NCBI GenBank assembly: GCA_009914755.4
Contig: CP068257.2
Span: forward strand, 24,576,001-24,640,000
Direction: 5' to 3'
Length of the DNA stretch: 64,000 bases
From: the human T2T-CHM13v2.0 reference genome, Homo sapiens
The notes under the pieces were generated by a model. It was not told the origin of the DNA, did not search any database, and saw only the letters and a program-made list of their open reading frames with translations. Of the stretch, positions 8,813-57,109 are shown one piece after another (positions within the stretch are counted from its first letter, which is position 1; each line of letters starts with the position of its first letter). A program made the position numbers and the translations under genes.

Positions 8813-8985
8813 AAGAGAACAAAAGAAAGAGAGAAAGAGAGAGAGAAAGAAAGGAAGAAAGAAAAGAAAGAAAGCAAAAAGAAAAGAAAAGAAATAAAAA
8901 AGAAAAAAGAAAGAAAAAAGAAAAGAAAGAAAGGAAAGAAAGAAAAAAGAAAAGAAAGAAAGTAAAAGGAAAGAGAGAAATGAAG
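8813..8985. repeat. (GAAA)n/(AAAG)n imperfect tetranucleotide microsatellite, about 170 bp
   Basis: aaagagaacaaaagaaagagagaaagagagagagaaagaaaggaagaaagaaaagaaagaaagcaaaaagaaaagaaaagaaa... The K/E-rich ORF 8761-9003 and the F/L-rich ORF 8658-9047 are just translations of this repeat. Confidence 0.9.
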
Positions 8986-9992
8986 AAAATCAGTTTAATA
9001 TAGTACTTGGAACATATCAAATGCTTACAAAATTTAGTGCCCTTCATTGCACTGGAGAAGAGTTAGGTGGCATTTTGTAGCTCCGTATGCTCAGATACAG
9101 TTTGTTTTTGAGCTGGGAATATTTTAGACTTCATCTTTTCTTTCTTAGTCCTATAATTTTCCTTTATTCATAATGCAGTCATCCCTTTCCCACCCATGGA
9201 AACAGTGAAATGTGGGACCAGCCATGCTATATTATTAATTTTGCAAAGCTTGCTGACAGTGACCTCTCCAGCAGTAGCATTCACTCTTTTGCCTTAAAAA
9301 ATTTCCCACAAAAGCTCTCCACTAGGCATAAGCATTACTCTTAGTCCTCCCACTGCTTCAGTGTGGCACAGTCATCAGTAATATGTAGATTTCCACTTTG
9401 GCTAGGGTCTATTTCTCTGCTTTGCTCAGAAGGTACCACTGACCTTTCTGATTAGCTGAGTTGCAGATGACTGAGCTTGCACATAAAAGGGACAGTCAGA
9501 AAATAAATCTTCCCTGTGTCTGTCTAGACAGACTCCAAGAGTCAGGAAAAATTCTGCTGAAAGTCCATAAATCTTCCATCTTTCTTCCTGAAAGCATGTA
9601 CGAGAACAGTTCTCCTGTCACTACGTATGAGAGCATTCCTGAATGTGTGGGTAGGGTTTTTGATGTCAATTTTTTTTATATCAACTGGTAAAACTTTATT
9701 TTACAAGCAACAGGAATTGGATCAAATGATTATTATAATCCAGAGGAAATATTTTGGAACCACAGCAAATGCCATTATACATACTGCCAATACAGATTTA
9801 ATAGACAATACTGAACTGTACAAGAGTTATTTATTTTTCCTTAATCTCGAAGCTATTTTTAGTAATACAAAAAAGCCATATTAACATTTTTTTCCCGTTA
9901 GAAAACATGATGTACAAAACTTTGGATGAAAAGATAAGTCAAATTTCGTTTAATCACTTGGAGGAAAATCCACCAACTCTCTCAATACCACC

Positions 9993-10397
9993 TTTCACTC
10001 GCGTCCGTGTGAAGAGACCACCAAACAGGCGTTGTGTGAGCAATAAAGCTGTTTATTTCACCTGGGTGCAGGCGGGCGGGCTGAGTCCAAAAAGAGAGCG
10101 AAGGGAGATAGGGGTGGGGCCGTTTTATAGGATTTGGGTAGGTAAAGGAAAAAGGGGGGTTGTTCTCTGGTGGGCAGGAGTGGGGGTCACAAGGTGCTCA
10201 GTGGGGGAGCTTTTTGAGCCAGGATGAGCCAGGAGAAGGAATTTCACAAGACAATGTCATCAGTTAAGGCAGGAACAGGCCATTTTCACTTCTTTTGTGG
10301 TGGAATGTCATCAGTTAAGGCAGGAACCGGCCATCTGGATGTGTATGTGCAGGTCACAGGGGATATGATGGCTTAGCTTGGGCTCAGAGGCCTGACG
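9993..10397 (-). mobile_element. HERV-H LTR7-like LTR (the provirus's 3' LTR, since the element is on the minus strand)
   Basis: The reverse complement reads tgtcaggcctctgagcccaagctaagccatcatatcccctgtgacctgcacatacacatccagatgg...ctataaaacggcccc...ggactcagcccgcc...cacccaggtgaaataaacagctttattgctcacacaacgcctgtttggtggtctcttcacacggacgcgagtgaaa, matching the LTR7 consensus termini. It is about 96% identical to the LTR at 15194-15599. Confidence 0.85.
10053..10058 (-). promoter_or_regulatory. AATAAA polyadenylation signal of the HERV-H 3' LTR (reads aataaa on the minus strand)
   Basis: The plus strand reads gcaataaagctgtttatttcacctggg. The minus strand gaaataaacagc holds the LTR7 R-region polyA signal, with cleavage expected about 15-25 nt further left on the plus coordinate. 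Confidence 0.4.
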
Positions 10398-11873
10398 TTC
10401 CTGTCTTCTTATATTAATAAGAAGAATAAAACAAAATAGTGTCGAAGTGTTGGGGCGGCGAAACATTTTTGGCAGGGGGTGGTATGGAGAGAGAGAATGG
10501 GTGATGTTTCTCAGGATTAGGGGAGGCGTGGGAACCTGGAGTGGGAGAGATTAAGCTGAAGGAAGATTTTGTGGTAAGGGGTGATATTGTGGGGTTATTG
10601 GAAGAAACATTTGTCATGTAGAATTATTGGTGATGGCCTGGATACGGTTTTATATGAATTGAAAAACTAAATGGAATAAGAGAAGGAGAAAACCAGGTAT
10701 TAAAGTTCTAAGAATGGGGAGGACCTAGGACATGTAATTAGAGAGTGCTTAAGGAGATTTAGCATAGTTCTGCCAGCAAAGATTATTTATTTAAGAGTTA
10801 AGAGTGGCAGTTTGGGGATAGCACCAGGAGATATCAGCTGTGATAGCTTGGAGAAACAGTGTAAACTGGCAGTGTAAACAAGAGCAGGGCACGTATGAGT
10901 AGTTGAGAACAGTGAACAGGAGTATGACTAGACAGAAGATAGTAGGGATGACAAGTTTTTTTGGGGCACAGTCTTAAGTTGGTCTGGTGTCTGGAATAAG
11001 ACTGGGGCCTAATAAAAAGGAGCGTCCATACAGGAGCTTAAATGTGCTGTACCTTGTAGGATTCCGAGGACAGGCCTGAATTCTGAGAAGGGAAAGTGGT
11101 AAAAGTACTGTCCAGTTCTTTTTAAGTTGGTGGCTGAGCTTGGTGAGGTGTGTTTTTAAAAGACTATTAGTCTGTTCTACCTTTTCTGAAGACTGAGGAC
11201 CGTAAGGGGTATAAAGGTTTCACTGAATACCAAGAGCCTGAAAAGCCGGTCTGCTATTGGACTGTATAGAGGTGGGAAGGCCAAAGCGAGGAATTATGTG
11301 TGACAGAGGGGAAGAAATGACTGCGGTGACCTTTTCAGACCCTGTGGGAAAGGCCTCTACCTATCCAGTGAAAGTGTCTACCTAGACTAAGAGGTATTTT
11401 AGTTTCCTGACTCAGGGCATGTTGAGTAAAGCTACTTTCCCAGTCCTGGGTGGGGGCAAATCCTTGAGCTTGATGTGTAGGGAAGGGAGGGGGCCTGAAT
11501 AATCCCTGAGGGGTAGTAGAATAGCAGATGGAACACTGAGAAGTTATTTCCTTGAGGATAGATTTCTACGATGGAAAGGAAATGAGAGGTTCTAAGAGGC
11601 GGGCTAGTGGCTTATACTATAGCATAGCCTGCCTTTGCTGGTGTGGTGATTAGGCCTGGTGGAACTGCCATCAATAAACTAAGTGTGATCAGGGTGAGGA
11701 ATAGGAAAGAAGGAAATATGGGGAAATGGGGTGGAATGTCAGGTGCATCAGAGAGATACAGTCATAGGGGTCAGGTGTGGTATCAGGAATAATGTGGGAG
11801 GCCGGATTGAAGTCCGGACCAGGAACAATGGTAATTGTGGGAGACTCAACAAAGAGTGAGTACAGCTGAAGGA

Positions 11874-11957
11874 GCTGGGGAGCAGAAAGTATATGCGTCA
11901 GGTGTGAGGAAGAAAATAGCTGGGGAGCAGAAAGTATATGCGTCAGGTGTGAGGAAG
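11874..11957. repeat. ~45-bp tandem duplication inside the HERV-H pol remnant
   Basis: gctggggagcagaaagtatatgcgtcaggtgtgaggaag occurs twice, separated by aaaata. It gives the duplicated peptide FLTPDAYTFCSPA in minus-strand ORF 11846-12037. Confidence 0.7.
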
Positions 11958-12018
11958 TTATGAGAACTGTTGAGAGTGAGTTGAGCATAGTTTGTGATTT
12001 TAAGGGCCTCTAAAAGTA

Positions 12019-12228
12019 TTAGGGCAGTGGTGGCCACTGCACGCAGACTTGAGGGCTAGGCAAAACAGTAAGGTCAAGTTGTTTGGATAAAAAGGCTACA
12101 GGGTGTAGTCCTGGTTCTTGTGTAAGAATTCTAACTGCACAGGCCTGCACTTTGGCTGTGGGTAATGAAAAGGGTTGGGATTTGTCAGGGAGAGCTAGGG
12201 TGGGGGCAGTCTCTAAAGCTGTCTTCAA
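12019..12228 (-). pseudogene. HERV-H pol remnant: RT C-terminal / connection region
   Basis: The translation ...LALPDKSQPFSLPTAKVQACAVRILTQEPGLHPVAFLSKQLDLTV... parallels the gammaretroviral Pol segment ...[46 protein letters not shown]... Confidence 0.5.
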
Positions 12229-12454
12229 GGAACGGAAAGAGGAATGGGGAAAGGATTTAGGATCTATGGGGTCAGCTAGGTTTCTTTTTGTGAGTTTATA
12301 TAATGGTTTTGTTAGGATAGCAAAACCAGGTATCTAAAGTCGAAAGTGTCTAACCATGCCCAGGAAGGAAAGGAGTTGTCGTTTTATAGCTGTTGGGGTT
12401 TGAGATATCAGCTGAACAGGATCAGCAGGGAGAGCACGTGTGTTTTTATGAGAA

Positions 12455-12730
12455 TTACGCTGAGATAGGTAACAGCTGAGGAAGAAATTTGGGCTTGACT
12501 GAAGTAATGGGGGCTGTCTGTGAAGCTTGCAGCAGTACAGCCCAGGTAATTTGCTGAGCCTGATGGGTGTCAGGGTCAGTCCAAGTGAAAGCGAAGAGAG
12601 GCTGGGATGAAGGGTGCAAAGGAATAGTAAAGAAAGCATGTTTGAGATCTAGAACAGAATAATGGGTTGTGGAGGGAGGTATTGAGGATAGGAGAGTATA
12701 TGGGTTTGGCACCATAGGGTGGATAGGCAA
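12455..12730 (-). pseudogene. HERV-H pol remnant: reverse transcriptase N-terminal motifs, frame-shifted
   Basis: Translation YSVLDLKHAFFTIPLHPSSQPLFAFTWTDPDTHQAQQITWAVLLQ matches the gammaretroviral RT block VLDLKDAFF.LRLHP.SQPLFAFEW.DP....QLTWTRLPQGF. The overlapping ORF 12334-12639 in another frame indicates frameshifts. Confidence 0.7.
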
Positions 12731-13112
12731 AATAATTTGGTTGATAAGGTGCAGATCCTGAACTAACCTGTAAGGCTTGTCTGGTTCTAGGACAGGTAAA
12801 ATGGAGGAATTGTAAGGAGAGTTTATAGGCTTTAAAAGGCCATGCTGTAACAGGTGAGTGATAACAGGCTTTAATCCTTTTAAAGCGTGCTGTGGGATGG
12901 GATATTGGTACTGAGCGGGGTAAGGGTGATTAGGTTTTAATGAGATGGTAAGGGGTGGATTATAGGTCGCTAAGGAGGGAGTAGAGGTATCTTATACTTG
13001 TGGGTTAAGGTGGGGAGATATAAGGGGAGGATGTGAAGGAGGCTTTGAACTGGGGGAAAAGGTGGCAATGAGGTGTGTCTGTAGCCCAGGAATAGTCAGG
13101 GAAGCAGATAAT

Positions 13113-13346
13113 TTAGTTAAAATATCTCGGCCTAATAAGGGAACTGGGCAGGTGGGGATAACTAAAAGGATTGCTTAAAAGAGTATTGTCTAAGTTGGCA
13201 CCAGAGCTGGGGAGTTTTAAGAGGTTTAGAAACCTGGCTGTCAATACAACAGTTATGGAGGCAAGGGAAACAGGCCTTTGAAAAGAAGGTAATGTGGAGT
13301 GGGTAGCCTCCGTATTGATTAAGAAGGGGATGGACTTACCTTCCAC
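13113..13346 (-). pseudogene. HERV-H protease remnant (degenerate)
   Basis: Translation ...IPFLINTEATHSTL... resembles the aspartic protease active-site block LLDTGA.HSVL, with D>N and G>E substitutions. It lies between the gag and RT remnants. Confidence 0.45.
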
Positions 13347-14007
13347 TGTGAGAGTTACCTAGAGCGTCTGTGATGGTCTTGTAGGCTTCTGAGGCAATCC
13401 GGCAGTATCAGTCTTCAGCTGCTAAGCTGAGAAGATCTGGGAAGGAGTCAGAGAGCCTTGGGCCAGAGTTCCAGGGGCTCTGGAAGTGGCTGCCAGGTGA
13501 GTTGAACAGTCCGATTTTCAGTGGGGTCCTGCACAGATGGGACACAGCTTAGGAGGAATCTTGGGCTGTGGGCATTCCTTGGCCCAGTGGCCAGATTTCC
13601 AGAGCTTGTAGCAAGCTCCTGGGGGAGGCAGGCCTGGAGGAATGCCTGGCCACTGAGGTTTAGGCGTTTAGAAGTTCTTGTGTGCTGGAGATGTGGCTGG
13701 GGTTTGTCTCATAGTGGAGGCAAGGAATTGCAACTCAGAAATATGTTGCTACTTGGCTGCCTCTACTCTATTATTGTACACCTTGAAGGCGAGGTTAATT
13801 AAGTCCTGTTGTGGAGTTTGAGGGCCGGAATTTAATTTTTGGAGTTTTATTTAATGTCGGGAGGAGATTGGGTAATAAAATGTATATTGAGAATAAGACG
13901 GCCTTTTGACCTTTCAGGGTCTAGGGCTGTAAAGCATCTCAGGGTTGCTGCCAAACGAGCCATGAACTGGGCTGGGTTTTTATATTTGATGAAAAAGAGC
14001 CTAAACG

Positions 14008-14277
14008 CTATCTGATTTGGGATAAAGAAAAAGGAGCATTAACCTTGACTATGCCTTTAGCTCTAGCCACCTTTTTAAGAGGAAATTGCTGGGCAGGTGG
14101 GGGAAGGCTAGTCACAGAATGAAACTGGAAGCCAGACCAGGTGTGAGGAGGGGAGGTGATAAAAGGATTATAGGGTGGAGGAGCAGAGGCTGAGGAAGAA
14201 TTGGGACTTAGCCTGGCGAGGAGGGGAGAAGTCAGATGAGTCTGTAGAAAAGGACTATTAGAAAGACTCAGTGACAC
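14008..14277 (-). pseudogene. HERV-H gag remnant carrying a PPPY late-domain motif
   Basis: The translation contains ...SSASAPPPYNPFITSPP... The PPPY L-domain is characteristic of gammaretroviral Gag (MA/p12 region). It sits 3' of the primer-binding site on the element strand. Confidence 0.6.
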
Positions 14278-15168
14278 CTGGGGTTGGGACTGAGGGGACA
14301 GGCAGGAGGGAAAGAAGGAAGATTTGGGACTAGTTGCATTGGGAACAGAGACTAAGGAGGGATTGATGTGTAAAAGAATGGCTGGACGTCAGGCACCTCA
14401 GACCGTTTGCCTATTTTATGACAAGAATTATTTAGATCTTGTAGGATGGAAAAATTGAAAGTGCCATTTTCTGGCTATTTGGAACTACCGTCGAATTTGT
14501 ATTGGGGTCAAGCAGCATTGCAGAAGAAAATAAGACGCTTAGATTTTAGGTCAGGCGAGAGTTGAAGAGGTTTTAAGTTCTTAAGAACACAGACTAAGGG
14601 AGAAGAAGGAGGAATGGAGGGTGGAATGTTGCCTATAGTGAAGGAGGCAAGTTTAAAGAGAAGGGTAGAGACGTGGAGTAGGGGATGGGGAGCAGCCAAA
14701 GCAGGCATCCCCGCAATTGACTTGCCACCAAGGGAACGTGGGTGAATGACCAAGGCAGGTGTCCCTGCGGAGATCAGACACCAATGGAATGTGGGTGAAT
14801 AATCAGAGAGGCATCCTTGCAATGATTAAACACCAAGGGAAGGCTGCCTTCCCGAGTCCATGACCGGCACCGGAGTTTTGGGTCCGTGGATAAAATGTGT
14901 CTCCTTTGTCTCTACCAGAAAGTGAAAGGAATTGAAATTAAGAGAAGGGAGAGATTGAAGTGTGGTGCCAAGATTGAAAGGAGAAAGAGGTTGAGAGATA
15001 GTGAGGGAGGTTGGAGAAGAGAGTAAAAAGAGGCTGCTTACCGGATTTGAAATTGGTGAGATGTTCCTTGGGCTGGTGGGTCTGAGGACCCGAGGTCATA
15101 GGTGGATCTTTTTCACGGAGCAAAGAGCAGGAGGACAGGGGATTGATCTCCCAAGGGAGGTCCCCCAC

Positions 15169-15185
15169 TCCGAGTCACGGCACCA
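15169..15185 (-). other. Primer-binding site complementary to the tRNA-His 3' end (minus strand TGGTGCCGTGACTCGGA)
   Basis: The plus strand reads tccgagtcacggcacca, a few nucleotides inside the right LTR boundary. HERV-H is named for its histidine-tRNA primer-binding site. Confidence 0.7.
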
Positions 15186-15193
15186 ACACCAAA

Positions 15194-15599
15194 TTTCACT
15201 CGTGTCCATGTGAAGAGACCACCAAACAGGCTTTGTGTGAGCAATAAAGCTGTTTATTTCACCTGGGTGCAGGCGGGCTGAGTCCGAAAAGAGAGTCAGC
15301 GAAGGGAGATAGGAGTGGGGCCGTTTTATAGGAGTTGGGTAGGTAAAGGAAAAAGGGGGGTTGTTCTCTGGTGGGCAGGAGTGGGGGGGTCACAAGGTGC
15401 TCAGCAGGGGAGCTTTTGAGCCAGGATGAGCCAGGAGAAGGAATTTCACAAGACAATGTCATCAGTTAAGGCAGGAACAAGCCATTTTCATTTCTTTTGT
15501 GGTGGAATGTCATCAGTTAAGGCAGGAACCAGCTATCTGGATGTGTATGTGCAAGTCACAGGGGATATGATGGCTTAGCTTAGGCTCAGAGGCCTGACA
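15194..15599 (-). mobile_element. HERV-H LTR7-like LTR (the provirus's 5' LTR and promoter)
   Basis: Near-identical to 9993-10397. It ends ...ggctcagaggcctgaca on the plus strand, which is tgtcaggcctctgagcc in reverse complement. The flanking CCACC at 15600-15604 matches the CCACC at 9988-9992 as a target-site duplication. Confidence 0.85.
15324..15331 (-). promoter_or_regulatory. TATA-like box (tataaaac on the minus strand) in the HERV-H 5' LTR U3
   Basis: The plus strand reads ccgttttatagg. The LTR7 consensus has ctataaaacggcc upstream of the R region. Confidence 0.4.
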
Positions 15600-18500
15600 C
15601 CACCCAAAGTGTTTTATGCAGTGAATAAAATCAAAATAATGCATCTTAATAAATTCCAGCTGTTAAAAGAACAAACTTAGCAATATATAACAGTTTGCTA
15701 CGCAGGATTTTTGACTATTCACTTTGGGAGTTATTTTTTAAAATCCACTTTTTTTTACTGAGTCTTACTACATATCAGGCACTGGACTTGGCCATCTAGG
15801 TAACTAAGAAAAAGTTGGTTAAGATAGGAAAGACCCATAAATCAATCCTTTGATTACCAAATGCAATTTTTAACTTTCAAACATCCCCAAGATCAAGAAA
15901 CCCTAACTAAAAATACACACCCTTCTAAGTGTTATTTGATTTTATTAGTAGCAAGGGTGTTTGGTAAGGTCGTGAACCTCTATTTTTGATCCATTATTCC
16001 AATTAAAAGCATGCGTCAAAAGCTAATTTGTTATTTTTCTAATGTGTTTAAGATTTGGCATTCAGTTTTTACACATGTGGTTCAGTGATTTATCATGAAC
16101 CCTAAACTGCACACTGCTCAAAAACAGCAACACAGATGTGCGTTACATGAAATAATGGTTTTTGATACATATCTTCAAATTCAATTCAGTTTAGGGTCCA
16201 GTGAAGAAAAAGATATCCAGTTATCGGGTGGTAAAGAGCAGAGGAGGTAAACTAGTTAAGATTATTAATATGCAGTGAAGTGTTATTGTCTATCTTATCC
16301 TTTGAGTAACAAGATGCTAACACGCTTTCAAGAAAAAACTGCTTAAAACTATGCTAAAGGCCCATGCATTGACATCATCCATTCAACACCGTTACTTTGT
16401 TACATAAAACGGTTTTCTTAAGGTGTAACATATTAGGCAATAATTTGGAAATTAGCCAAGCACTAAGCAATTATAATAGCAGGTAATACACCATCAATTT
16501 TTGAAACACATTTGGCCACATTTCACAATCCATCTGCAGTATGGATTCTATAGACTCTCACTCAGTTTAAAATTTGTTTCTGGACCTGAATGACAGGAGA
16601 ATGGCTTTATGAAATTTTCTCATAAGACATTTAAGTAGTCTTAGGTTCACAACCCTTTTGTTGTAAATGATTTAATCTGACATGCCATATAACTACAATA
16701 CAAATAATTATGTTCAATTCTTAAATGAAAACTAAATGCCAATAAATGGTAACAGATTTGACATGGAATGTTCTAAGATCTTCCTCTACATAATCTGCCA
16801 TGGCAGATTATGAATTTCAGAGCTTGAAAACTTCAGATTAAGAACCACAAGAAAATTTACTCTTGATGGCATACAAGATCTTCCTAAAAATTAACCTAAG
16901 ACCTAGAAGTCTCAGTATTATTAGAACATAAAGAAACGCAACAAATCTGTATATTTTATTCACATATATTTTTGTTTTTAGTGTGCTCACAGAAAATTAG
17001 AACACCTTAAGTAGGAGTTTAATAGCAATTTTTGTAAGCAAAGTTACATTCCATCTCTAAGTCAAATTGGTCGACGCTTCTCCAGCATTTACAAAACATG
17101 ATAGACAAGATGCTACACAAAACCATTGCATCTGAAGATTTTTTTTTTCCTTTATTCTCAAAGATGACTGGAAAAGAAAGCATTATCTGCTGTAATCAAA
17201 AACATACCACAGTATAAACAGTAACCATTCCGCTTATCACAGCTTGGTTGAGTTTAAAATTTGTGTTTAAAAGGTCCAAGATGACTGCAGTTTTACAAAA
17301 ATGGGCAGGGTGGAAAGTCGCAAACTTCATGTGCTTCTGGATATCAAGATTTGTTTTTATACAATAGTCACAGTTAAAAACACCCTGCTGGTAATACATA
17401 ATTACACTTTATTAAGGTCATAAACCAGCAATAAACAATACAGCCTATATAACTTGTAGTTCTACTTAATCACTGACTGGTACACCTAACATGAGATAAG
17501 TGAAAAGTTCCTATGGTTTAAATGAACTCCTAAGACTATGATCATTTTTTTTTTTTAAATATGGGTATTGGTGTTTTTTCTTTTTTCCTCTTTCCTTCTT
17601 AGTCAAGACTTGTAGTGTTGTAAACCTGCCTCACAAAATACATGGTAATAACTTTTCTTAAAAAAAAAGACAGCCTTTACACCATTTCTAGTGGCACATT
17701 ATTTTGGCAATGTTATGTACCACTTCCATTTCCCCATTGTGACCCCTATCACTTCATTTGATATCCCTTTTTGACCCACCCATCTCTTTCATATATGGGC
17801 ATATCCATAGATTGACAAAGGAAGTTTACATTTTTGAATAAAGATGGAGAGTATGCAAAAACATTAATACTGATGCAAAAAAATAAAAAAATAGAAACAA
17901 GGCAGAGGAAGAAGGTGTTTAAGCTCTCCTCGACCTGTTGGAATGGTGGTTAACAGAATGATTTGAGATGGGATCTGTGGGGAGGGGAGAAAAAAAACAA
18001 AATTTTGTGCTTAAAAAAAGTAAAAGATTGATGTCAAATATTTGTACTAAGATTGCGGGTGGCAAGAGTTAGCATCCTGCAGTTAGAAGCAAAATTAGAG
18101 ATTTGGACTGGTCAAGGACAGCATTGATATGTGTGGGGTATGTAAATCACCCAAGCTCTGCAAAAGTACTGAGAATAACTTGTATTTTCCAGACTGAAAA
18201 CCTACCATGATGGGGAGGGATTGAAGTGGGCCCTGGAACAACTCCGGAATACATTACAAGCTTAAGGGGAGAGCAAGGAATTTAGACCATAGAGCTCATC
18301 ATTCATCATTTTATTCCACATAAAATGGGTGTTTCAGCATGTCCAAAAGCATAGATAAGGAAATTGAGCTTCCCAAGAAGTTAAGCCAGTTGTTTGCAGT
18401 TAGAGAAAGCATGTTTTTATGAAGCTGTCCTACCCAGGAGCGGGGAACAGGTCCCTGGGCTCTATGACCATGGAAATCTCTAGATGAGTAAAAGAAAGCT

Positions 18501-56671: not shown

Positions 56672-57109
56672 ATGGCAATAGTAAGTCTTTATCTATCAAT
56701 AATTACTTTAAATGTAAATGAACTAAGTTATTCAATCAAAATACATCAAGTGGCTAAATGGATTAACCAAAAAAAAGACTCAGTGATATGCTGCCAACAA
56801 GAGACTCATTTCATCTCTAAGAACATACATAGACCAAAAATGAAGGGATGGAAAAAGTTATTCCATGGAAATAGAAATCAAAATAGAGCAGGGATAGCTA
56901 TACTTATATCACACAAAATAGACCTTAAGTCAAAAACTATAAAAAGAGGTGAAGAAGGTCATTATATGACGATAAAGTGGTCAATTCATCAAGAAGATAT
57001 GACAGTTGTAGATATGCATCCATCCAAAGTTGGAACACCTAAATTGGTAAAGCAGATATTAATAGATCCAAGGAATGAGATAGACTGTAATATAATAATA
57101 GTAGGATAA
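56672..57109 (+). pseudogene. L1 ORF2 endonuclease-domain fragment
   Basis: 145-aa ORF MAIVSLYLSIITLNVNELSYSIKIHQVAKWINQKKDSVICCQQETHFISKNIHRPKMKGWKKLFHGNRNQNRAGIAILISHKIDLKSKTIKRGEEGHYMTIKWSIHQEDMTVVDMHPSKVGTPKLVKQILIDPRNEIDCNIIIVGD aligns to L1 ORF2p residues 1-~150 (...LNINGLNSAIKRHRLASWIK.QDPSVCCIQETHL...GW.KIYQANGKQKKAGVAILVSDKTDFKPTKIKRDKEGHYIMVKGSIQQEELTILNIYAPNTGAPRFIKQVL.DLQRDLDSHTLIMGD). Confidence 0.8.

What the first reader, a model, noticed from the sequence alone, without database searches (positions are those of the whole stretch)
9988..15604. Structurally complete HERV-H provirus (LTR7-like LTRs, 5-bp TSD, PBS-His, gag/pro/pol remnants) on the minus strand
Two co-oriented LTRs of about 405 bp (9993-10397 and 15194-15599) bracket 4.8 kb of internal sequence. 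The same pentamer CCACC lies immediately outside both LTRs (9988-9992 and 15600-15604), the expected signature of a single retroviral integration. A tRNA-His-complementary primer-binding site (tccgagtcacggcacca on the plus strand) sits just inside the right LTR. Minus-strand ORF remnants appear in retroviral order: gag with a PPPY late domain, a protease DTGA-like block, the RT VLDLK..F..PLHP / QPLFAF.W.DP block, and the RT connection region. So this is a provirus rather than solo LTRs, and its 5' LTR (TATA, R, U5) points leftward. From established knowledge, LTR7/HERV-H proviruses are frequent promoters of long non-coding RNAs in human pluripotent cells. This copy has the architecture needed for such a transcript, running from about 15.4 kb leftward with polyadenylation in the left LTR near 10.03-10.06 kb.
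Basis: partly seen in the sequence, partly recalled or inferred. Interest (0 to 1): 0.55.

Follow-up and report, generated by a model that had tools for sequence, protein, structure and literature searches.

The report
Known defective HERV-H provirus, chr21
This is an ordinary, already catalogued, non-coding HERV-H endogenous retrovirus on human chromosome 21 near APP, and its LTRs belong to a subfamily (LTR7d2) that is not the one driving stem-cell RNAs.

Summary
Two co-oriented LTRs (9993-10397 and 15194-15599, minus-strand sense) differ by 3.75% and enclose 4,796 bp. They are flanked by a CCACC duplication. A 17/18 tRNA-His primer-binding site follows the right (5') LTR. Degraded gag, pro, RT, RT-connection and integrase remnants follow in retroviral order. 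No env is detectable, and every frame carries 55-68 stops.

The element is already known. The 5' LTR matches the entry hg38 chr21:26,227,879-26,233,487(-) in Carter et al. 2022 with no substitutions over 401 nt. The PBS string, zinc-knuckle string and LTR divergence match RetroTector chain 4881, a canonical HERVH, in Vargiu et al. 2016. The provirus lies about 57 kb beyond the high-coordinate end of APP.

The LTRs are LTR7d2 ("LTR7 down"), 96-98.5% identical to the 7d consensuses against 91-93% for LTR7up. They lack the extra repeat block of LTR7up. The 7d consensus is a weak promoter in iPSCs. The published H1 ESC row for this locus reads: RNA 0, top-septile GRO-seq 0, chimeric transcript 0, KLF4 0, SOX2 0. 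NANOG, KAP1, H3K4me3, H3K27ac and H3K9me3 are called positive.

So the provirus call holds, and the pluripotency-lncRNA inference is not supported. This is an ordinary finding of low interest.

The parts
9988..9992 (.). Left copy of the 5-bp target-site duplication, CCACC
   Evidence: Read directly. It abuts the outer end of the left LTR. The chance that the two junction pentamers match is 0.0016.
9993..10397 (-). 3' LTR (405 nt), LTR7d type. Its first sense base is mutated TG to CG. It has a 4-nt deletion and a 4-nt CGCC duplication relative to the 5' LTR.
   Evidence: It is 97.7-98.5% identical to the LTR7d2/d1 consensuses.
10052..10057 (-). AATAAA polyadenylation signal of the 3' LTR. The predicted cleavage site is about 10.03-10.04 kb.
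   Evidence: Motif scan. The cleavage position is inferred.
10398..10410 (-). Purine-rich tract AAGAAGACAGGAA directly 5' of the 3' LTR, a putative polypurine-tract relic
   Evidence: Sequence. RetroTector did not call a PPT for this chain, so this is tentative.
10786..13090 (-). pol remnant as delimited by RetroTector, converted from hg19 coordinates. It contains the RT fingers/palm (12781-12503), the RT connection (12243-12073) and the integrase core (11402-10986). No YXDD motif is found, and nothing matches an RNase H catalytic domain.
11873..11957 (-). Tandem duplication inside the pol remnant: a 40-nt exact unit at 11873-11912 and 11918-11957, with a 45-nt period
13091..13517 (-). Protease remnant. 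The active-site relic is LINTEATHS (NTEA at 13316-13305). The GRD flap motif is at 13132-13124.
13521..14636 (-). gag remnant. It holds a PPPY late domain (14181-14170), a Gag_p30 relic (13981-13844) and a mutated zinc knuckle CYKLWKSGHWAKEC (13613-13572).
   Evidence: The same zinc-knuckle string is listed for RetroTector chain 4881.
15169..15185 (-). Primer-binding site TGGTGCCGTGACTCGGA(g), matching the tRNA-His 3' end at 17 of 18 positions
   Evidence: A tRNA-His-GTG reverse primer reads TGGTGCCGTGACTCGGATTCGAACC. A HERV-H PBS primer reads TGGTGCCGTGACTCGGAT. RetroTector lists the identical string.
15186..15193 (-). 8-nt spacer TTTGGTGT between the LTR and the PBS, made of the usual TT plus a 6-nt partial duplication of the PBS start
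   Evidence: compared with copy L002, where the PBS follows the LTR after TT
15194..15599 (-). 5' LTR (406 nt), LTR7d2. The TATAAAA box is at 15330-15324. An R-region primer site is at 15297-15277. An AATAAA is at 15258-15253. The predicted TSS is about 15.30 kb.
   Evidence: It shows 0 substitutions over 401 nt against the published hg38 chr21:26233084-26233487 LTR.
15600..15604 (.). Right copy of the target-site duplication, CCACC

Best explanation
The region is a fixed, replication-dead HERV-H provirus of the LTR7d2 subfamily, on the minus strand of human chromosome 21q21.3. Its coordinates are hg38 chr21:26,227,879-26,233,487 and hg19 27,600,196-27,605,806, about 57 kb beyond the high-coordinate end of APP.

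Shown here: one retroviral integration produced the 5-bp CCACC duplication. The two LTRs have since diverged by about 3.5-3.75%. The internal part is the common deleted, env-less HERV-H form, and it is full of stop codons, so no retroviral protein can be made.

Inferred: the LTR divergence corresponds to roughly 8-19 million years, in a hominoid ancestor. The deleted layout is shared with other copies, so it was inherited from a defective progenitor that was probably mobilised in trans.

The 5' LTR keeps a TATA box and the 3' LTR keeps an AATAAA signal, so an unspliced transcript of about 5.3 kb (roughly 15.30 kb to 10.03 kb, minus strand) is architecturally possible. The LTR type is the weak 'down' subfamily, however. 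In H1 ESCs this locus is scored as not transcribed. It binds NANOG and KAP1 and carries mixed H3K4me3, H3K27ac and H3K9me3 calls. Its most likely present state is a largely silent, near-neutral relic with at most weak promoter or enhancer-like chromatin.
For: Anatomy.

Family and subfamily: the LTRs are 95.8-98.5% identical to the LTR7d1/d2 consensuses with 2-5 gaps. Against 7up1/2 they are 91-93% identical with more than 50 gapped positions. The multiple alignment shows that a roughly 38-nt stretch carrying one of 7up's two ACAAAAGAAGTG-containing repeat units has no counterpart here.

Locus identity: the 5' LTR carries every private substitution of the entry 'LTR7d2_chr21_26227879_26233487 ... 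7down', with 0 substitutions over 401 nt. RetroTector chain 4881 lists the same PBS string, the same zinc-knuckle string, an LTR divergence of 3.47%, the subgenes 5LTR PBS MA CA NC Prot RT IN 3LTR, and no env.

Activity: the locus row reads RNA 0, top GRO septile 0, chimeric 0, KAP1 1, NANOG 1, KLF4 0, SOX2 0, H3K4me3 1, H3K9me3 1, H3K27ac 1. Signal in GRO-seq was visible only in the top septile, and this locus is tagged 3 of 7. The 7d consensus is a weak promoter in iPSCs.

Age: 7d1/2 amplified 9-20 Mya, which fits K2P 0.039.

Shared deletions: copies L001 and L002 are collinear with this one at 86-91% identity.

APP coordinates.
Against: The locus is called positive for H3K4me3, H3K27ac and NANOG, and its name carries an ENCODE 'Txn' tag. 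Some low-level or context-specific transcription therefore cannot be excluded. The RNA call is a threshold (FPKM above 2) in one primed ESC line, and multi-mapping reads at repeats lower sensitivity. The 7d expression profile in embryo stages is not described in the text I read.

The age estimate rests on an assumed neutral rate and ignores possible LTR-LTR gene conversion. Vargiu et al. warn that HERVH LTR divergences can be discrepantly low.

I could not align the whole 64-kb window to an assembly. Locus identity rests on the 5' LTR and on the matching RetroTector descriptors.
Confidence: 0.93

Rival explanations
1. One reading: the right LTR is an active pluripotency promoter that drives a HERV-H lncRNA leftward through the provirus, as at LTR7up loci.
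For: TATA, R/U5 and AATAAA are intact in the right places. NANOG, H3K4me3 and H3K27ac are called positive, and the entry name carries a 'Txn' chromatin tag.
Against: The LTR is 7d2, not 7up. Only about 2% of non-7up loci are highly expressed in H1 cells. The 7d consensus gave 7.8-fold less reporter signal than 7up1. The locus row reads RNA 0, top GRO septile 0, chimeric transcript 0, KLF4 0, SOX2 0, with KAP1 and H3K9me3 positive.
Confidence: 0.06
2. A poised regulatory element rather than a transcript source. The 5' LTR would act as a weak, NANOG-bound enhancer or bivalent promoter-like element in early embryonic cells, about 57 kb from the APP end of the interval. KAP1 and H3K9me3 would restrain it.
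For: NANOG 1, H3K27ac 1 and H3K4me3 1 sit together with KAP1 1 and H3K9me3 1 at this locus. Carter et al. note that putative enhancer marks are spread over a broader range of LTR7 loci than promoter marks.
Against: These are binary peak overlaps from different experiments at a repeat, not evidence of function. NANOG binds 45% of 7d2 loci without transcription. No target gene or contact data were available. H3K4me1 is 0 for this locus.
Confidence: 0.2
3. Not a single integration. The two LTRs would come from different HERV-H insertions, joined by recombination or rearrangement.
For: HERV-H copies do recombine. Vargiu et al. classify 48% of HERVH chains as non-canonical mosaics.
Against: Identical CCACC pentamers abut both ends (P about 0.0016). 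Both LTRs share a 10-nt deletion and two shared substitutions relative to the 7d consensuses. They differ by only 3.75%. The interior is collinear with other copies. RetroTector flags this chain as canonical.
Confidence: 0.01

Closest known systems
HERV-H (HERVH-int with LTR7), subfamily LTR7d2 of Carter et al. 2022; the same locus is RetroTector chain 4881 of Vargiu et al. 2016
   Same: Everything tested agrees: LTR sequence, PBS-His, gag/pro/pol order, absence of env, size (5.6 kb, like other full-length 7d2 entries of 5.3-6.4 kb), LTR divergence, strand and coordinates.
   Different: Only private details differ. These are a 6-nt duplication before the PBS, a 45-nt-period tandem duplication in pol, small indels in the 3' LTR, and a 10-nt LTR deletion relative to the 7d consensus. 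That deletion is shared with the neighbouring 7d entries in the published alignment.
LTR7up-driven HERV-H loci, the ESC-transcribed subset that yields pluripotency lncRNAs
   Same: Same family and overall architecture. TATA and poly(A) signals are conserved. NANOG is bound.
   Different: One of 7up's two ACAAAAGAAGTG-containing repeat units has no counterpart here. According to the paper, block 2b with the SOX2/3 8-bp motif is absent from 7d1/2. There are no KLF4 or SOX2 peaks and no RNA call. Identity to the 7up consensuses is 91-93% with large gaps.
Murine leukaemia virus and related gammaretroviruses
   Same: The RT remnant aligns with MoMLV RT over 147 residues (E 1e-39), including VLDLK.AFF..LHP.SQPLFAF.W.DP. 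A PPPY late domain, a single zinc knuckle and the pol domain order are also shared.
   Different: The PBS is for tRNA-His. From my own knowledge, MLV uses tRNA-Pro and makes a 4-bp rather than a 5-bp TSD. All genes here are dead, and env is absent.

Membership tests
HERV-H (HERVH/LTR7) | LTRs belong to the LTR7 family | tested here: met
   Global alignment to the 11 published consensuses gives its best matches with LTR7d1/d2, at 95.8-98.5% identity and 2-5 gaps. The locus is listed as LTR7d2 in the published alignment and table, which were built from RepeatMasker hg38 LTR7 plus HERVH-int annotations.
HERV-H (HERVH/LTR7) | Primer-binding site complementary to the 3' end of tRNA-His, just downstream of the 5' LTR | tested here: met
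   TGGTGCCGTGACTCGGA lies at 15185-15169 in sense, a 17/18 match to the tRNA-His-GTG 3' primer and to the HERV-H PBS primer. The spacing is 8 nt instead of 2 nt because of a 6-nt duplication.
HERV-H (HERVH/LTR7) | Internal sequence homologous to HERVH-int, with gammaretrovirus-like gag-pro-pol | tested here: met
   Pfam finds Gag_p30, RVP, RVT_1 and RT_RNaseH_2 in order. MoMLV RT is the best solved structure. An integrase core is present. The element is collinear at 86-91% nucleotide identity with two other copies carrying LTR7-type LTRs. RetroTector assigns taxorder 10610, HERVH, canonical. I did not have the HERVH-int consensus itself.
HERV-H (HERVH/LTR7) | Provirus hallmarks: paired LTRs in the same orientation flanked by a short target-site duplication | tested here: met
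   The LTRs differ by 3.75%. CCACC lies at both junctions. That 5 bp is the usual HERV-H duplication length is my recollection and was not tested.
LTR7up (ESC-active HERV-H promoters) | LTR sequence closest to the 7up1/7up2 consensus, including the block-2b duplication with the 8-bp SOX2/3 motif | tested here: not met
   Identity to 7up is 91-93% with 51-58 gapped positions. In the alignment a roughly 38-nt stretch of 7up has no counterpart here, and only one ACAAAAGAAGTG-type unit is present per LTR. In the 5' LTR that unit is mutated to AAAAGAAATG. The paper states that block 2b is absent from 7d1/2.
LTR7up (ESC-active HERV-H promoters) | Transcribed in human ESCs or iPSCs, with KLF4 and SOX2 occupancy | tested here: not met
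   This rests on the published per-locus calls, not on my own analysis of the data: RNA 0, top GRO septile 0, chimeric transcript 0, KLF4 0, SOX2 0.
Replication-competent or protein-coding provirus | Open gag, pro, pol and env reading frames | tested here: not met
   Each sense frame has 55-68 stops. The longest sense ORF is 104 aa. No YXDD motif is found. No env family is hit, and RetroTector reports no env.

The most novel reading that the evidence does not exclude
Despite its 'down' subfamily, this NANOG-bound, H3K4me3/H3K27ac-positive LTR7d2 provirus lies about 57 kb from the end of APP where, from my own knowledge, the promoter sits, and on the same strand. It might act in some early-embryonic or disease context as a distal regulatory element or alternative upstream promoter affecting APP or a neighbouring unannotated lncRNA.
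Probability: 0.03. Interest if true: 0.45.

Novelty: already known. Interest (0 to 1): 0.07.

Why it matters
It matters little. The element is one of roughly a thousand HERV-H proviruses in the human genome and is already listed, with coordinates, subfamily and chromatin calls, in at least two published catalogues. The useful outcome is a correction. LTR7-plus-HERVH architecture alone does not predict a pluripotency lncRNA, because that property is largely confined to the LTR7up subfamily, and this copy is LTR7d2 with no RNA call in H1 cells. The locus assignment also anchors the whole window to human 21q21.3, beyond the high-coordinate end of APP.

Tried and rejected
- Giving Pfam the raw DNA references failed because of in-frame stops. 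I re-ran it with stops masked as X.
- Pfam did not report an rve integrase hit at E up to 1, although the integrase core is recognisable against solved integrases.
- MAFFT aligned the compensating 4-nt deletion and 4-nt duplication in the 3' LTR without gaps, producing spurious substitutions. I used a gapped pairwise alignment for the divergence instead.
- The search for homologous proteins returned 559 relatives of the RT remnant at up to 95% identity, but none carried a useful name. It therefore could not assign the family.
- The Rfam scan of the whole window gave nothing.
- Searches for literature on a 21q21.3 HERV-H, and for this locus among colon-cancer HERV-H transcripts, found nothing relevant.
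- A chimeric or two-insertion origin was considered and rejected (see rivals).
- No other LTR7 or HERV-H sequence occurs in the window.
- I looked for an excess of derived substitutions in the 5' LTR. After discounting the misaligned indel block, the count is 11 against about 3-4, which is suggestive but not significant at this sample size.
Full report
**1. What is in the sequence**

The region 9988-15604 contains two direct repeats about 5.2 kb apart. Read on the minus strand, each starts (T/C)GTCAGGCC and ends GAGTGAAA. The boundaries are 15599-15194 (406 nt, the 5' LTR in sense) and 10397-9993 (405 nt, the 3' LTR).

A gapped pairwise alignment gives 385 identities, 15 substitutions and 4 small indels. 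Thirteen substitutions are transitions and 6 lie in CpG context. The p-distance is 3.75% and the K2P distance is 0.039. The ungapped MAFFT treatment of one indel pair inflates the mismatches and was discarded.

CCACC lies directly outside both LTRs, at 9988-9992 and 15600-15604. The pentamer is frequent in the window, with 145 sites on both strands, one of them only 18 nt away. So it is not unique. The chance that the two junction pentamers are identical is still only 0.0016. Joining the flanks gives a plausible empty site...CTCAATACCACC|CAAAGTG....

**2. Retroviral landmarks, in minus-strand sense**

- The 5' LTR has TATAAAA at 15330-15324 and AATAAA at 15258-15253.
- The 3' LTR has the same motifs at 10129-10123 and 10057-10052.
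- The sequence GACTCTCTTTTCGGACTCAGC, the complement of a published HERV-H R-region primer, lies at 15297-15277.
The predicted poly(A) site is about 10.03-10.04 kb.
- After the 5' LTR comes TT-TGGTGT-TGGTGCCGTGACTCGGAg.
- The last 18 nt match 17 of 18 positions of the complement of the human tRNA-His-GTG 3' end (primer TGGTGCCGTGACTCGGATTCGAACC).
- They also match the HERV-H PBS primer TGGTGCCGTGACTCGGAT.
- In another copy, L002, the PBS follows the LTR after TT. The 8-nt spacer here is therefore a 6-nt partial duplication.
- A purine-rich AAGAAGACAGGAA precedes the 3' LTR.

**3. The interior (10398-15193, 4,796 nt)**

All three sense frames carry 55-68 stops. The longest sense ORF is 104 aa. 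With stops masked, Pfam finds four families in retroviral order:

| Family | Window coordinates | E-value |
|---|---|---|
| Gag_p30 | 13981-13844 | 0.007 |
| RVP | 13168-13097 | 0.014 |
| RVT_1 | 12781-12503 | 1e-5 |
| RT_RNaseH_2 | 12243-12073 | 1.6e-7 |

- PPPY lies at 14181.
- The protease relic reads LINTEATHS, a mutated DTGA.
- LLGRDILTKL is present.
- The RT block reads [28 protein letters not shown].

The RT piece aligns best with MoMLV RT among solved structures (E 1e-39), so this is a class I, gammaretrovirus-like element.

- A mutated nucleocapsid knuckle, CYKLWKSGHWAKEC, lies at 13613-13572.
- An integrase-core relic lies at 11402-10986 (E 2e-10 to PFV integrase).
- A tandem duplication with a 45-nt period lies at 11873-11957.

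No YXDD motif is found. Nothing matches an RNase H catalytic domain or an env family.

Two other HERV-H copies were recovered through RT homologues (L001 and L002). They are collinear with this element at 86-91% identity, from the 5' LTR to window position 11415 and from RT to the 3' LTR. The short, env-less layout is therefore a shared, inherited form and not private decay. This agrees with the statement that 800-900 of about 1,000 HERV-H elements lack almost all of env.

**4. Family and subfamily**

Carter et al. 2022 (PMC8912925) provide consensus sequences for 11 LTR7 subfamilies. Global alignments give:

| Consensus | Identity to the window LTRs | Gaps |
|---|---|---|
| LTR7d1/d2 | 95.8-98.5% | 2-5 gaps |
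| LTR7o/bc/u1 | 93-95% | - |
| LTR7up1/2 | 91-93% | more than 50 gapped positions |
| LTR7b/c/y | 90-93% | more than 125 gapped positions |

The multiple alignment shows that about 38 nt of 7up, carrying one of its two ACAAAAGAAGTG-containing repeat units, has no counterpart in these LTRs. The paper states that block 2b, which in 7up holds the SOX2/3 8-bp motif, is absent from 7d1/2.

**5. The locus is already catalogued**

I searched the paper's alignments for private variants of the 5' LTR. This found the entry 'LTR7d2_chr21_26227879_26233487_2979_KAP1_EncodeTxn_NANOG_GRO3of7_C_7down'. Degapped, that entry shows no substitutions against the window's 5' LTR over 401 nt. The only differences are two Cs in a C-run and the terminal AAA, which lies outside the annotated LTR. 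The sister 3' LTR differs from the entry at 15 substitution sites. With human-chimpanzee divergence of about 1.2% (my own knowledge), zero differences argue for human sequence.

Independently, Vargiu et al. 2016 (PMC4724089) Table S1 lists RetroTector chain 4881 with these descriptors:

- HERVH, canonical, at hg19 chr21:27605806-27600196.
- Subgenes 5LTR PBS MA CA NC Prot RT IN 3LTR.
- LTR divergence 3.47%.
- PBS tggtgccgtgactcggag (His GTG).
- Zinc finger cyklwksghwakec.
- No env.

The PBS and zinc-finger strings are exactly the ones found here. Converted to window coordinates, gag is 14636-13521, pro is 13517-13091 and pol is 13090-10786.

APP is at GRCh38 chr21:25,880,550-26,171,128 and hg19 27,252,861-27,543,446. 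The provirus therefore lies about 57 kb beyond APP's high-coordinate end. From my own knowledge APP is on the minus strand, so that end is its promoter side and the provirus points toward it.

**6. Age**

K2P 0.039 with 1.0-2.3e-9 substitutions per site per year (assumed rates) gives about 8-19 My. Carter et al. place 7d1/2 amplification at 9-20 Mya. They describe it as largely hominoid-specific, with about 75% of copies shared with orangutan and about 30% with gibbon. Vargiu et al. caution that HERVH LTR divergence can be discrepantly low.

**7. Function**

The architecture for an LTR-to-LTR transcript is intact, but the pluripotency inference fails on the available evidence.

- Strong ESC transcription is confined to 7up: 33% of 7up loci are highly expressed, against 2% of all other loci.
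- The 7d consensus drove 7.8-fold less luciferase than 7up1 in iPSCs.
- The row for this locus reads RNA 0, top GRO-seq septile 0, chimeric transcript 0, OCT4/MED1/KLF4/FOXA1/FOXP1/SMAD1/SOX2/TCF4 all 0, and ZNF534/ZNF90 0.
- In the same row KAP1 is 1, NANOG is 1, H3K4me1 is 0, H3K4me3 is 1, H3K9me3 is 1 and H3K27ac is 1.
- GRO-seq signal was visible only in the top septile, and this locus is tagged 3 of 7.

The mixed active and repressive calls leave room for weak or poised activity, which I rate as a minor rival.

**8. Verdict**

The provirus interpretation is correct, with two qualifications: the element is the deleted env-less form, and the TSS is near 15.30 kb. The lncRNA inference is not supported. 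The element is already known and ordinary.

Noticed in passing
window 15350-15354 and 10150-10154 (both LTRs): Both LTRs lack 10 nt (GACTGTAATT) that are present in the LTR7d1/d2 consensuses, upstream of the TATA box. All eight complete 7d1/7d2 entries visible in that part of the published alignment share the same gap, so it probably marks a sub-lineage within 7d.
   Followed up: partly
window 15194-15599 versus 9993-10397: Polarised against the 7d consensuses, about 11 of the 15 LTR-LTR substitutions are derived in the 5' LTR, and 10 of those 11 are C>T or G>A, only a few at CpG sites. About 3-4 are derived in the 3' LTR. The asymmetry is suggestive but not significant at this sample size.
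   Followed up: partly
window 11873-11957: An exact 40-nt unit (AGCTGGGGAGCAGAAAGTATATGCGTCAGGTGTGAGGAAG on the plus strand) is repeated with a 45-nt period inside the pol remnant. I did not check whether other HERV-H copies share it.
   Followed up: no
window 15186-15193: A 6-nt partial duplication of the PBS start (TGGTGT before TGGTGCC) pushes the PBS to 8 nt from the LTR, against 2 nt in copy L002.
   Followed up: yes
window 8370, 23479, 26006, 28547, 41593, 44173, 47719 (Alu 5' ends); 56672-57109; 8816-8988: The rest of the window looks like ordinary primate intergenic DNA. It has at least 7 Alu elements, an ORF that looks like a LINE-1 ORF2 endonuclease fragment (judged by eye, not tested), and an (AAAG)n microsatellite next to an Alu. 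There are no Rfam hits anywhere in the 64 kb.
   Followed up: partly
protein P0012: A protein deposited as 'hypothetical protein INO80_13400 [Staphylococcus aureus]' is 89% identical to this HERV-H RT remnant. Many unnamed hits come from metagenome assemblies. The most likely explanation is human DNA contamination in microbial and metagenomic records.
   Followed up: no
window 9907-10227 (+): A 106-aa plus-strand ORF runs from the unique flank across the TSD into the antisense 3' LTR. It is almost certainly a chance ORF.
   Followed up: no
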